DNA of 64,000 nt from an uncultured Chroococcidiopsis sp. (GTDB lineage Bacteria > Cyanobacteriota > Cyanobacteriia > Cyanobacteriales > Chroococcidiopsidaceae), in contig CAXTYC010000004.1 in assembly GCA_964248365.1 (NCBI GenBank), positions 160,001 through 224,000 of the forward strand, read 5' to 3'. A program made the position numbers and the translations under genes. The notes beneath the pieces are model-generated. The model searched no databases, was not told the DNA's origin, and worked only from the letters and a program-made list of their open reading frames with translations. Every line of letters starts with the position of its first letter. The first letter of the stretch is position 1. Positions 48,211-58,068 of the stretch are shown piece by piece.

Positions 48211-48395
48211 AACATGGTAGGATGCGTCCCACAACTTACCTGTAGGAGTTTTGGTGCGGCTAGTGGAGGGAGCGTGGAGAAGTTTAAGGTGTAGCTGCTT
48301 GTTGTTAGACTATATATTATAAGTCTCACTGGTTATGGTAGGCGATCGCTCACTCGACCTAATTGATAGAAAATGGCTTCATTCCCATCCTTGTT

Positions 48396-49262
48396 ATGAC
48401 TGCTGCTATCCCCGTTGTCAAACCTGTTAGTCAAATGAGGCTAGCTCCAGGTAGCACCGTCACTATTCCCAACGTCAGTTGGCAGGAATTTGAGTGTATT
48501 TTACAAGAATTAGGAGAGCATAGAGCAGCACGAGTTGCCTACAGTAAGGAAACTTTAGAGATTGTGGTTCCTCTACCTGAGCATGAAAAACGGTTGTGTT
48601 GCAAAAAACGATGCTGAGCAGGTAGTGTATTCTCTGTAAACAGTTAATACTGTCTCAATGAACCACTCGCATCCCTTTAAATGGCAGCATTTTGAATCAG
48701 AAATCATCGGGCTAGTGTGTGAGGTGGTATTCGAGATATCCACTTTCGCTACCGCCACATGGAAGAGATAATCAGGGAGAGAGGATGGTTCTGTTGACCA
48801 TACAACTATATACAGATGGGTGCAGCACTATGCGCTGCTAATTAGAGAAAAGATGCAAGCGAAAATTTTTGGAGTTGCTGTATAACGAGAGCTGATTGTC
48901 AGGATTGCTCTGTCCTTAAAAAGTTGTTGCAACACAACCGTTTTTATATCCAGAATTATCAGCGTATGATTACTCGTCGTAGGTTTGAGCCTAACGATCC
49001 TCCCCCAGATCTTGCTATTGAAATAGATGTCACTTCTAAAACGACTCTCGACGCTATTGAAGCGATCGCAGTCCTAGAACTATGGGTATACGCCAGCCAG
49101 AAGCTGAGCGTTTATCTACTCCAAGATGGAAAATACCTAGAATCTAATACCAGCCCTATCTTTCCAAACGTACCTATTGCTCAAATTATACCTGCGGTTG
49201 TTGAACGTGCGTGTCTTGTGGGGAGTGTTCAGGCATTAGAAGAATTTGCAGCAACAATTTGA
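48396..49262 (+). pseudogene. Uma2/DUF820 endonuclease-family gene split by an IS6 remnant
   Basis: N-half VSWQEFE..LEIVVPLPEHEK (to 48591); C-half FYIQN..PPPDLAIEIDVTS..SPIFP (from 48940). Confidence 0.88.
48592..48939 (+). mobile_element. Internally deleted IS6-family element
   Basis: Perfect 13-bp IR GGTTGTGTTGCAA / TTGCAACACAACC; frameshifted fragments HPFKWQHFESEII and VDHTTIYRWVQHYA. Confidence 0.88.
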
Positions 49263-54829: not shown

Positions 54830-55104
54830 CAAATCCTCTTTTGTGCTTGACAAGCACAATTCAAAGTACTACCAGCTTCTGAATCTTTACATCTGTGATG
54901 CTCTTACCTCCCATCTTATCCACCCTCAAACAGGATTGCAGGGGGGTAAAACCGTAATTTTGATAGACGGCTTTCCGTTGTTCACCGTTTTTTTCTGATT
55001 GCACCAAGAGACGAAAGATGAGAGAAAAGGACGTGAAACTCATACACAGCAAGAATAATGAAAACCATTCTTGTTGTGTTCCATCAAGTTGTGACAGCTT
55101 CTGA

Positions 55105-55171
55105 CTTTAAGAAAGAGCGATCGCGCTGTGGCGAGAATCTCTTCGTCTGTAATAGTTTTATTACGGGGTAT
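55105..55171 (-). pseudogene. TetR N-terminal remnant
   Basis: (I)PRNKTITDEEILATARSLFLK, after which similarity stops; ATA in place of ATG. Confidence 0.55.
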
Positions 55172-55203
55172 TAAATTTGCGTTCAGTTCGAGGGAAAAAA
55201 TAG

Positions 55204-55390
55204 AAAAATCCCTCGGCTTCATGGGTGATCTGTAATGCACAATGGTTGGGAGGCGAAGGCTTGAAAAAATAAGTCAGCCAATTTCATCGTTATCTGTTTG
55301 TCCCAATATTAGAAGGATTTGGTTTGAAGGCTGACTTATTTTTTTTGCGCCAACTTCCAGATCTATTTTGTTAAAAGCCGAGGGATTTTT
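55204..55390 (+). repeat. Long nested inverted repeat (rod-like hairpin)
   Basis: Two perfect 16-bp stems: 55204-19/55375-90 and 55264-79/55329-44. Confidence 0.85.
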
Positions 55391-55552
55391 AGACTTCGTG
55401 TTCAAGGTAGTTCGTGCGATATCTCACACAAGGTTATACCATTTTAGATTTTAGATTTTAGATAATAGAATTGGGGAATCCTCATCAGTAGCCCCACGTA
55501 GCAATTCGTTGGTAGCAGCCATAAAGCCAAATGGTATTAGATATTTTTACGT

Positions 55553-55999
55553 TCACAAAACGATGCCGTGTCGGGCGCGAATTTCAAGTATGGACTGTTC
55601 CTTTAGCCGAGAAAACTCCTCAACCGCCAGTTTCTTTTTCATGCGTAAGCTCTTGAAGATGATGCTGATAATGCGTGGAAGGCTAGCGAACCAGATGTTA
55701 ATTAACTTGAAGTACCCAATACCAGACAAAACATTGCGATGCTCAAGGCTAGCAACTGCACGATGCATTTCGCTGATTTTTGCCGTTGTAGCAAAGATCA
55801 TCCATATATGTACGGCGATTTCGTCTTCAATAGAAGTGCCACAATTAAACAAGATGTGAACTGCATCATGCTGCTCCAATGCCTGCCTTACCTCTGCCGA
55901 CATTTTGTTTGTCAGATCGGCTTCATGTTCTAATGCACACAATTTTTGAATGGCTTCGCCCAAAGTAATTGAAGTACCAAAACCAAATTGCTCATTCAT
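55553..55999 (-). CDS. Hypothetical protein with a Coq4-like HDxxH-x11-E motif
   Basis: HDAVH-ILFNCGTSIED-E; AGGAG RBS. Confidence 0.7.
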   Translation of the reverse strand: MNEQFGFGTSITLGEAIQKLCALEHEADLTNKMSAEVRQALEQHDAVHILFNCGTSIEDEIAVHIWMIFATTAKISEMHRAVASLEHRNVLSGIGYFKLINIWFASLPRIISIIFKSLRMKKKLAVEEFSRLKEQSILEIRARHGIVL

Positions 56000-56119: not shown

Positions 56120-56495
56120 GTGCTATTACATACAGCCGAACCGCCTTAGTTCAAATGTGATCTAGGGCGGTTCGGGATTGATATAGAGTTAGATATAGGG
56201 TGAGACACTAGACGTTTACTACCTAAAACCTCAGTTGGGTAGTAACCAAGTGAAGGAAACGACACAAACTTCACATCGTCTAGAGTCTGTATATGCACTG
56301 TCTGCACATATGCTGTCGCTTTGGTTCATGGCAGCTAAGGGTAAAATCGAATACCCATTCAGTACGTTTTTACTTACATTTACTAGAATAACACAACCAT
56401 TGAGTTTAGCGCTGTCGCTCTAAAGTGGAATTCCTATCGTCTGCAACTTAGACTTCTTTCAGCCATTTACATCTACCCTTGTGCTTATATTGCTG
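56120..56495 (+). ncRNA. Candidate large structured ncRNA, family not recognised
   Basis: At least eight stems, G-U pairs favouring the + strand, TATACT at 56110-15; boundaries inferred. Confidence 0.5.
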
Positions 56496-56575: not shown

Positions 56576-57220
56576 TCAAAGCATAATTAAACCTTGTCTT
56601 GCTCCAAGGGTAACTGCTTCGGTGCGGCTAGAGGCGTTGAGCTTGGTGAATATAGATGAGACGTGGAACTTGACTGTATGCTCAGAGATGCCCAAACGTC
56701 GGGCGATCGCTTTGTTACCCAACCCCTGGGCTAACATACCCAAAACCTCAATTTCTCGCCCAGTCAACGCTTGCACTGGATTGGCATCATCAGGTCGAGT
56801 GGTAGAAGGTAATATAGGCAGCAGTGCATCCACTACTTCTGGGTGCAATACTACCAGCCCAGCCGCAGCAGCAACAACTGTATGCAAAATCTCTTCCGCT
56901 GTTGTCGAGCGCGGTAATACTGCTCTTACACCTAAGCGTAGCGCTTCGGTTATCCAGTCACCTGGGGGGGTATCGGCGAGGATAACAATTGCTACCACCC
57001 CCAAAGTGTTGAGTGTAACTAATTTCTCTGACACAGGTTCGTCATCTTGCAGCCCTAATTCTATTAGCACCACATCAGGCGAGTGTGCTGCTACCAAAGC
57101 AGCTAAGGTATCTGTATCAAATGCAATACCCACTACTGATAGATTGGGACTTGCTCGGAGAATGCTTTCCAACCCAGCACGTACAATCAAATCAGTAGCA
57201 ACGACCAGAACACTTGTCAC
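56576..57220 (-). CDS. NarL/LuxR-family regulator with atypical receiver domain
   Basis: LTGREIEVL..GLGNKAIARRLGISEHTVKFHV; the GTG start overlaps the upstream TGA (GTGA). Confidence 0.9.
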   Translation of the reverse strand: MTSVLVVATDLIVRAGLESILRASPNLSVVGIAFDTDTLAALVAAHSPDVVLIELGLQDDEPVSEKLVTLNTLGVVAIVILADTPPGDWITEALRLGVRAVLPRSTTAEEILHTVVAAAAGLVVLHPEVVDALLPILPSTTRPDDANPVQALTGREIEVLGMLAQGLGNKAIARRLGISEHTVKFHVSSIFTKLNASSRTEAVTLGARQGLIML

Positions 57221-58068
57221 GCCGCCTCCGCTCCGGTTTTGCCATTTTGCGATCGCACTGTGCAAGTCAGATGCTCAGCTCCACGCAGGAAATCAAGTTG
57301 CAGTGTATCCCCTGGGTTAATCTGCCCTAGTGCTTGTGCTAAGTCTGTAGTTGCTCGGAAAAATTGACCAGCAAACCCAATTAATACATCAAAAGTCTTT
57401 AGCCCTGCTGTTTGGGCTATGCTGCCTTGGTGTACTTCTAGGACTAACAAACCTAATATACGCTTACCTCTTAGTCGTACAAAAACGGGTTGGATCGTTA
57501 CCCCCAGTAATGGGCGTTCCTCATCCTGATGCACAAAACGCTCAACTGTATTGCTAGGTACAGCTAGAGCTAAACCGCCAGCAATTACAGTATTGATACC
57601 GATGACTCTACCTTGGGCATCTGCCAAAGAACCGCCAGAATTGCCTGGAGCTAGTCGAATATCTGCTTGTACCCATCTGCCTGGTGTATCATTGGGTGCG
57701 ATCGCATGAATAATTCCAGTCGTCAAAGCACCGACAGCACCCAGAGGATTGCCCACAGCTAGCACTAGTTCACCCACTCGGAGAGTATCACAGTTGCCTA
57801 TCGTCGCAGCTGGTAAATCGGTAGCATCAACTTTGATAAGGGCTAAATCCCGCTGGCGATCGCGCTTGATACATACAGCATCAAATACCCGTTTGTCTGA
57901 CAGTTCTACCGTCGCCCTCATACCTCTAACTACATGAGCGTTAGTGATGATTAAGCCGTTAGAGTCCCAGATCACCCCAGAACCGCCCCCAAACCTTTGA
58001 TGCACCTGGACAGTAGAACGGTTTAAATTTGCTGCTACCTTGGCTAATTCGTCATTTGGTGTAGCCAT
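57217..58068 (-). CDS. HtrA-like (S1C) serine protease with PDZ, no signal peptide
   Basis: TNAHVV, DLALI, PGNSGG, C-terminal PDZ. Confidence 0.92.
   Translation of the reverse strand: MATPNDELAKVAANLNRSTVQVHQRFGGGSGVIWDSNGLIITNAHVVRGMRATVELSDKRVFDAVCIKRDRQRDLALIKVDATDLPAATIGNCDTLRVGELVLAVGNPLGAVGALTTGIIHAIAPNDTPGRWVQADIRLAPGNSGGSLADAQGRVIGINTVIAGGLALAVPSNTVERFVHQDEERPLLGVTIQPVFVRLRGKRILGLLVLEVHQGSIAQTAGLKTFDVLIGFAGQFFRATTDLAQALGQINPGDTLQLDFLRGAEHLTCTVRSQNGKTGAEAA

What the first reader, a model, noticed from the sequence alone, without database searches (positions are those of the whole stretch)
56120..56495. Unexplained ~370-nt multi-branched structure: candidate novel large ncRNA
Seen: a gene-free interval packed with stems. 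These are CCGAACCGCCTTAG/CTAGGGCGGTTCGG (56136-75); AGACACTAGACG/CGTCTAGAGTCT (56203-88), which closes a three-way junction with TTACTACCTAA/TTGGGTAGTAA and GTGAAG/CTTCAC; GTATATG/CATATGC; GCTGTCG/TGGCAGC; GGGTA/TACCC; TTTAG/CTAAA; and GTCTG/TAGAC. A possible long-range closing helix pairs GATATAG..AGGGTGAGA (56180-205) with TCTACCCT..TTATATT (56472-91). The wobble-type mismatches I found are G-U on the + strand and would be A-C on the - strand, and TATACT sits at 56110-15. It is unlike the STRR/REP repeats elsewhere in the window, and I do not recognise it as tmRNA, RNase P, SRP, 6S, an intron or a Cas12k tracrRNA. Inference: a + strand RNA under structural selection, either an independent ncRNA or the orphan RNA of a lost RNA-guided or RT element.
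Basis: partly seen in the sequence, partly recalled or inferred. Interest (0 to 1): 0.8.

Follow-up and report, generated by a model that had tools for sequence, protein, structure and literature searches.

The report
Eroded copy of two-domain CyVA-1 RNA
The flagged stretch is a real RNA gene, but it reads from the opposite strand and is a damaged spare copy of a catalogued cyanobacterial RNA of unknown job (CyVA-1), whose intact relatives consist of two matching halves that lock together by two loop-to-loop contacts.

Summary
All named stems exist, but they are not one new plus-strand 370-nt RNA. The core (56205-56365) is a minus-strand homologue of Rfam CyVA-1 (RF02965). It scores only 21.5 bits against a cut-off of 41.4. 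However, all 6 same-genus genomes carry an intact copy behind the same luxR gene.

Intact copies have two related three-way-junction domains joined by two crossed loop-loop pairings; 41 of 54 pairs show compensatory change. G-U versus A-C counts (345:36), a conserved -10 box and a 3' hairpin place the RNA on the minus strand. The 56136-75 hairpin is probably its terminator; 56371-56495 is unstructured promoter DNA.

The window copy has lost both partners of one pairing and breaks 12 of 52 near-invariant positions (median 0), while an intact paralogue lies on contig C16. It is most likely a decaying copy. There is no support for an orphan omegaRNA or RT element. This scan found the two-domain form before on other DNA (e1-7604267). 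Function is unknown; my best guess is a self-locking, stress-induced scaffold or protein-binding RNA.

The parts
56415..56425 (-). Conserved upstream promoter motif C[CT]N3GAN2GA; probable activator site, regulator unknown
   Evidence: Present 50-68 nt before P1 in 29 of 80 copies vs 0.45 shuffled. 29 of 30 listed sites have a TAnnnT box 33-35 nt downstream vs 96 of 1134 non-coding genome matches.
56385..56390 (-). -10 box (TATTCT, with TG one base upstream); inferred start near 56378
   Evidence: TAnnnT 18-34 nt before P1 in 68 of 80 copies vs 37.8 +/- 4.2 shuffled and 46 of 80 on the other strand; conserved in orthologues. Start site is inferred.
56295..56365 (-). Domain 1 = CyVA-1 motif (P1, P2/loop A, P3/loop B), eroded: 4 nt missing from loop A, P3 shortened, loop B altered
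   Evidence: RF02965 21.5 bits, E 0.045, below gathering 41.4; alignments A1 and A3
56283..56294 (-). Variable linker between the domains
   Evidence: Unconserved in length and sequence in A1
56205..56282 (-). Domain 2 (P5, P6/loop C, P7), CyVA-1-like second half; about 21 nt holding P8 and loop D are missing near 56230
   Evidence: Model R1, built without the window: 48.7 bits, E 1.7e-9; orthologues 93-101 bits; deletion seen
56136..56175 (-). 3' hairpin, probable terminator or 3'-end stem; weak U tail
   Evidence: 18-nt arms, 89% complementary; z about -5.5; a hairpin at the same place in orthologues; not called by the terminator scan
56576..57265 (-). Upstream LuxR-family response regulator gene (synteny marker)
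   Evidence: PF00196; its orthologue precedes an intact copy in 6 of 6 same-genus genomes and in G207
55553..55999 (-). Downstream 148-aa ORF, weak Coq4 likeness; likely owner of the palindromic TATACT
   Evidence: PF05019 E 8e-4, below cut-off. In 5 orthologous loci the next gene is CP12 instead. Promoter assignment is inferred.

Best explanation
SHOWN: 56205-56365 (minus strand) descends from a two-domain CyVA-1 RNA gene that is intact at the same locus in sister species. Intact copies are two related three-way junctions on a variable linker. Loop A of domain 1 pairs with loop D of domain 2, and loop B pairs with loop C. INFERRED (about 0.75): the window copy is a decaying paralogue. It may still be transcribed from about 56378 to about 56130, but it cannot form the A-D contact, and the intact copy on contig C16 supplies the function. 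INFERRED mechanism of the intact RNA (about 0.4): a stand-alone RNA whose two loop-loop contacts lock it into a compact pseudo-symmetric particle, or link identical molecules. It would act through its shape as a scaffold or protein-binding sponge, not by pairing with mRNAs, and is possibly induced by osmotic or drying stress.
For: Homology: blastn hits in 10 of 200 other genomes of the order; 8 of those 10 loci pass the CyVA-1 cut-off. Synteny holds in 6 of 6 same-genus genomes. Two domains: R1 finds domain 2 beside the motif in 39 of 39 loci picked by RF02965 (16 were in R1's training set and some are duplicates). RF02965 itself weakly hits domain 2 in 9 of 20 loci. Structure: 96.7% of cells paired, 41 of 54 pairs with two-sided change, slid controls 36-49%. 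A structure-blind MI scan finds the A-D and B-C pairs. In 162 non-redundant copies A-D reaches z 12.5 and 13.0 and B-C z 9.5 and 13.4, while all A-B and C-D pairs have z <= 0.2. Decay: 17 of 54 pairs broken vs median 2 and next worst 7 (5 of the 17 lie in P3 and partly reflect alignment); 12 of 52 near-invariant columns violated vs median 0. Domain 2 identity to the nearest orthologue is 42/52, against 62-63/68 among intact orthologues. An intact paralogue lies at G000:C16. Stand-alone: own promoter, 3' hairpin, downstream gene same strand in 53 and opposite in 51 of 107 loci.
Against: The window copy fails the Rfam cut-off. It keeps P1, P5, P6, P7, all 7 B-C pairs, the promoter motif and a strong 3' hairpin, which could mean continued selection. 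Its own sequence folds better on the plus strand. There are no expression or read data for this locus, so the deletions are unverified against reads. Many homologues were gathered with patterns covering loops B and C, which biases those columns. Sequences are related, so the shuffle controls overstate. Covariation cannot tell pairing within one molecule from pairing between molecules. No partner protein is identified. The stress link is weak: the motif precedes the glgX-treZ genes in 6 of 7 same-genus genomes but in 0 of 13 other loci, and I found no published motif to match it.
Confidence: 0.75

Rival explanations
1. The window copy is a functional, streamlined one-contact variant: it keeps the B-C pairing, has dropped the A-D pairing on both sides, and could cap or compete with the intact paralogue.
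For: Both partners of A-D are lost while B-C keeps 7 of 7 pairs; P1, P5, P6 and P7 are intact. The promoter motif and -10 box are kept.
Against: Near-invariant bases outside A-D are also changed (12 of 52) and P3 is damaged. It is found in 1 of 8 orthologous loci. Once loop D is gone, loop A is free to drift. Another copy shortened in domain 2 (L235) sits beside what looks like a transposase gene (read by eye).
Confidence: 0.15
2. One reading: a novel ~370-nt plus-strand ncRNA, or the orphan RNA of a lost RNA-guided or RT element.
For: Plus-strand z -4.06; TATACT at 56110-15; one TnpB-like neighbour cluster of 2 loci.
Against: Homologues match CyVA-1 on the minus strand; G-U:A-C is 345:36; 56371-56495 is unstructured. 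No HEARO, group II intron or other family at E<=1 in 20 homologue loci. No RT or IscB family among 26 neighbour representatives scanned, of 107 clusters. No plasmid or phage blastn match.
Confidence: 0.03
3. The family is a cis-acting riboswitch-like leader, a ligand-binding RNA or a ribozyme rather than a scaffold.
For: Two pseudoknots, multistem junctions and many invariant bases meet the 'sophisticated RNA' criteria of PMC5737381 (passages). A non-canonical covarying pair exists (A1 columns 185-217).
Against: For cis control: the downstream gene is on the opposite strand in 51 of 107 loci and belongs to many unrelated families. There is no positive sign of a ligand or of catalysis; neither was testable here.
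Confidence: 0.2
4. The element encodes a small peptide or a type I toxin.
For: A GTG in P6 opens at least 20 codons in 72 of 80 rows.
Against: Third codon positions are the least variable (entropy 0.74/0.59/0.45), stops vary, and 6 of 67 rows are frameshifted. Variation follows base pairing.
Confidence: 0.02

Closest known systems
CyVA-1 RNA motif (Rfam RF02965; Weinberg et al. 2017, PMC5737381)
   Same: Domain 1 is this motif: same three-way junction and loop sequences. Orthologues score 76-86 bits; the window copy aligns over positions 1-77. Cyanobacterial, 1-4 copies per genome.
   Different: The Rfam model covers 77 nt and shows no pseudoknot; the paper's main text gives an average of 78 nt (supplement unreadable). 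The full unit is about 190 nt with a second domain and two crossed loop pairings. The window copy is eroded and falls below the cut-off.
ROOL and GOLLD RNAs (PMC12286853, passages)
   Same: Works-like lead only: RNA-only assemblies held by kissing loops, with a variable linker; in ROOL one contact first seen as tertiary covariation proved intermolecular.
   Different: Those are 600-800+ nt and unrelated in sequence; no Rfam hit here. No oligomer has been shown for CyVA-1.
phi29 packaging RNA (recalled, no call)
   Different: No sequence match, and no packaging genes beside the cyanobacterial copies; here two units are fused in one chain.
HEARO / IscB omegaRNA and RT-associated RNAs (recalled)
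   Same: Only that they are structured cyanobacterial RNAs of a few hundred nt.
   Different: No model hit, no linked nuclease or RT, no variable guide or element ends seen.

Membership tests
CyVA-1 (RF02965) | Window copy reaches the gathering score of 41.4 bits | tested here: not met
   21.5 bits, E 0.045; missed by the genome search
CyVA-1 (RF02965) | Orthologous copies at the same locus reach the gathering score | tested here: met
   6 of 6 same-genus genomes and G207, 76-86 bits
CyVA-1 (RF02965) | Three-way junction P1/P2/P3 in the window copy | tested here: inconclusive
   P1 and P2 pair; P3 is shortened
CyVA-1 (RF02965) | Conserved loop sequences in the window copy | tested here: not met
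   12 of 52 near-invariant columns violated
CyVA-1 (RF02965) | Expressed as a small RNA | not testable with these tools
   No data for this locus. PMC7002113 (passage) reports low-abundance CyVA-1 in halite cyanobacteria.
Two-domain CyVA-1 unit (defined here and in earlier scan notes) | Domain 2 directly downstream on the same strand | tested here: met
   R1 48.7 bits at 56205-56282
Two-domain CyVA-1 unit (defined here and in earlier scan notes) | Loop B-loop C pairing | tested here: met
   7 of 7 pairs in the window row
Two-domain CyVA-1 unit (defined here and in earlier scan notes) | Loop A-loop D pairing and P8 | tested here: not met
   0 of 6 pairs; both sides deleted
HEARO / omegaRNA / RT-associated RNA | Rfam match | tested here: not met
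HEARO / omegaRNA / RT-associated RNA | Linkage to IscB, IsrB, TnpB or RT genes among homologues | tested here: inconclusive
   No recurring link; one TnpB-like cluster of 2 loci; only 26 of 107 neighbour clusters were scanned with Pfam
ROOL/GOLLD-type RNA assemblies | RNA-only oligomer held by kissing loops | not testable with these tools
   Needs native gels, mass photometry or cryo-EM

The most novel reading that the evidence does not exclude
The window copy is a natural one-handed variant that keeps one contact and could end or tune assemblies of the intact paralogue. Its loop C is complementary over 7 positions, with G-U pairs, to the paralogue's loop B (read).
Probability: 0.1. Interest if true: 0.75.

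Novelty: new variant of a known kind. Interest (0 to 1): 0.3.

Why it matters
For this locus the result is mostly a correction: an apparent novel large RNA is an eroded copy of a catalogued motif, missed because it falls below the Rfam cut-off. For the family, it independently confirms that Rfam models less than half of the RNA. The full unit is a compact double-kissing-loop fold, found in 61 of 141 sampled genomes of the order and in a few GC-rich metagenome contigs. That makes an orphan RNA testable: defined ends, two switchable contacts, a candidate activator site and a natural deletion allele. I found neither the second domain nor the crossed pairings in print, but the 2017 supplement could not be read.

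Tried and rejected
Rfam at gathering threshold over the whole window: only tRNA-Val. Sigma-70 consensus scan: no promoter on either strand. blastn against plasmids and phages with the window copy, and against plasmids with an intact homologue: no match. Viral contigs: 0 hits with two specific patterns. Two loose patterns gave 238 loci with no convincing match: best R1 E 0.019 over 80 of them, best nhmmer E 0.18 over all 238. CP12 tblastn in phages found nothing. So I could not confirm the phage relatives reported in earlier scan notes; my patterns may be too cyanobacterial. Sequencing runs: no RNA holder listed, which is no evidence either way. Regex parsing of the loops was noisy and was replaced by alignment-based counts (229 elements reduced to 166 non-redundant; 4 lacking a domain-1 alignment were dropped). 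Within-domain pairings A-B and C-D rejected. Small ORF rejected. A link of the upstream motif to OrrA (recalled) was not supported by passages of PMC13131328, PMC7760821, PMC9804601 or PMC9971976; PMC4178590 is not held. Literature searches by sequence motif, by transcriptome terms and by sRNA-screen terms gave nothing relevant. PMC10690425 has no mention of CyVA; PMC9964418 passages list other phage RNAs. MFE folding of the intact orthologue is unremarkable (z -0.96), so the evidence rests on covariation, not energy.

Full report
Verdict. The interval holds a real structured RNA gene, but not the one proposed. It is a minus-strand, eroded copy of a two-domain RNA whose first half is the catalogued CyVA-1 motif (RF02965, function unknown).

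1. Observation. All 23 quoted motifs are in place. The 376 nt fold better than shuffles on both strands (plus z -4.06, minus z -2.61). The signal comes from the 56136-75 hairpin and the 56200-290 junction. The stretch 56371-56495 is no better than chance (z +0.6), and the whole without the first hairpin is only z -2.0. TATACT lies in a palindrome and reads on both strands.

2. Identity. Rfam gave nothing here at the gathering threshold. In E-value mode it gave CyVA-1 on the minus strand at 56295-56365, 21.5 bits against a cut-off of 41.4. blastn found matches in 10 of 200 other genomes of the order. Eight of these 10 loci pass the cut-off at 69-90 bits; one more scores 40.3 and one is spurious. 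A 25-nt pattern from outside the Rfam model found at least 121 loci in the genome collection; nearly all of the 80 listed are titled as cyanobacteria, the rest as uncultured bacteria or other labels. The luxR orthologue is followed by an intact copy in 6 of 6 same-genus genomes and in G207, but in none of the 5 other family members that carry the gene. The genome has a second, intact copy on contig C16.

3. Architecture. An 80-row alignment shows two three-way junctions on a variable linker. Of 54 proposed pairs, 41 show two-sided changes and 96.7% of cells pair; slid controls give 36-49%. A structure-blind MI scan recovers the helices and two long-range contacts. In 162 non-redundant copies, loop A covaries with loop D and loop B with loop C (top z 13.0 and 13.4). 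The within-domain alternatives show no covariation, and 146 of 162 copies keep both contacts (several failures are partial alignments). A model of domain 2 built without the window finds it beside the motif in 39 of 39 RF02965-selected loci, 16 of them in its training set, and in 61 of 141 genomes of the order. RF02965 itself hits 18 of 151 genomes across the phylum and weakly hits domain 2 in 9 of 20 loci, so the halves look like an old duplication (inference). In the tandem pair of L009, each copy's loop A matches its own loop D. Caveats: many rows were gathered with patterns over loops B and C, sequences are related, and covariation cannot separate pairing within a molecule from pairing between molecules.

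4. Strand and ends. In the minus orientation the stems hold 345 G-U and 36 A-C cells. A TAnnnT box lies 18-34 nt before P1 in 68 of 80 copies (shuffled 37.8, other strand 46). A hairpin of -10 kcal/mol or better follows in 75 of 80, against 32 of 80 upstream (windows of 140 and 100 nt, so not strictly matched). A second motif, C[CT]N3GAN2GA, lies at fixed spacing before the -10 box in 29 of 30 listed sites. The inferred transcript runs from about 56378 to about 56130; it has not been observed.

5. State of this copy. Against its orthologues it lacks 4 nt of loop A and about 21 nt holding P8 and loop D. It breaks 17 of 54 pairs (median 2, next worst 7) and 12 of 52 near-invariant columns (median 0, next worst 4). 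It keeps P1, P5-P7, all 7 B-C pairs and its promoter. Decay of a redundant paralogue is the simplest reading (about 0.75). A functional one-contact variant is not excluded (about 0.15). Assembly error could not be checked.

6. Mechanism. Shown: homology, fold, strand, and independence from neighbours (downstream gene same strand in 53, opposite in 51, none in 3 of 107 loci). Inferred: the conserved loops change in step with each other, so they are used for RNA-RNA contacts within the unit and not as seeds for mRNA targets. I therefore favour a shape-based role (about 0.4): a self-locking scaffold or protein sponge, perhaps oligomeric, in the manner of ROOL and GOLLD (PMC12286853, passages). 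A ligand-binding or catalytic role is the main rival. Stress induction is a weak lead. The motif precedes the glgX-treZ genes in 6 of 7 same-genus genomes and in none of 13 other loci, and no paper I read gave a matching site. A peptide reading is rejected. An omegaRNA or RT link is unsupported.

7. Prior knowledge. The term CyVA-1 occurs in 3 held papers, 2 listed. PMC5737381 gives an average of 78 nt (passages; supplement not readable, and it may bear on the second domain). PMC7002113 reports low expression in halite cyanobacteria (passage). Earlier notes of this scan already describe the two-domain, swapped-loop form (e1-7604267, e1-7604266); I had reached and tested that reading before seeing them. 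Other notes report single-domain phage relatives, which my searches did not recover.

8. Score. The window copy fails the formal membership cut-off but is the orthologue of passing members, so I file it as an eroded variant of a known kind. Interest 0.3: the locus is ordinary, while the family's full architecture is a worthwhile target that the scan has already noted.

Noticed in passing
window 56415-56425 (-) and G000:C11 near 59997 (-): Promoter motif C[CT]N3GAN2GA at 33-35 nt before the -10 box in CyVA-1 copies; also before the glgX-treZ genes in 6 of 7 same-genus genomes and before several small hydrophilic ORFs. Regulator unknown.
   Followed up: partly
L009, L048, L074, L079, L110, L119, L153, L211, L214, L266: Two copies of the two-domain RNA in tandem or close together; in L009 the two copies have different, self-matching loop sequences.
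   Followed up: partly
L210, L227, L247, L254: GC-rich (57-58%) metagenome contigs carry the two-domain form with their own compensatory loop A-D sequences; possibly non-cyanobacterial, taxonomy not determined.
   Followed up: partly
L133 (G000:C16:15604-15825), L158, L160-L167, L189-L193: A second subtype with a longer linker and different loop sequences. The G000 copy has a CRP-like site upstream (motif recalled, seen by eye).
   Followed up: partly
A1 columns 185-217 and 39-54: Strong covariation with mostly non-canonical combinations; likely tertiary or sheared pairs.
   Followed up: no
L235 443-523; L051, L060, L118: Other damaged copies: L235 is shortened in domain 2 beside a transposase-like ORF; L051, L060 and L118 lack an adjacent domain 1.
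   Followed up: partly
window 55040-55999: A TetR-like N-terminal fragment (by eye), two perfect 16-nt inverted repeats (55204-55390, 55264-55344) and a Coq4-like ORF lie between the RNA and CP12; in 5 orthologous loci CP12 is the next gene.
   Followed up: partly
window 48363-49262: Two short ORFs that look like pieces of one broken Uma2-type endonuclease gene (by eye).
   Followed up: no
L004, L005, L006, L014, L160-L166, L189-L193: A conserved cyanobacterial protein with no Pfam match is the commonest upstream neighbour (a cluster of 26 among 107 loci).
   Followed up: partly
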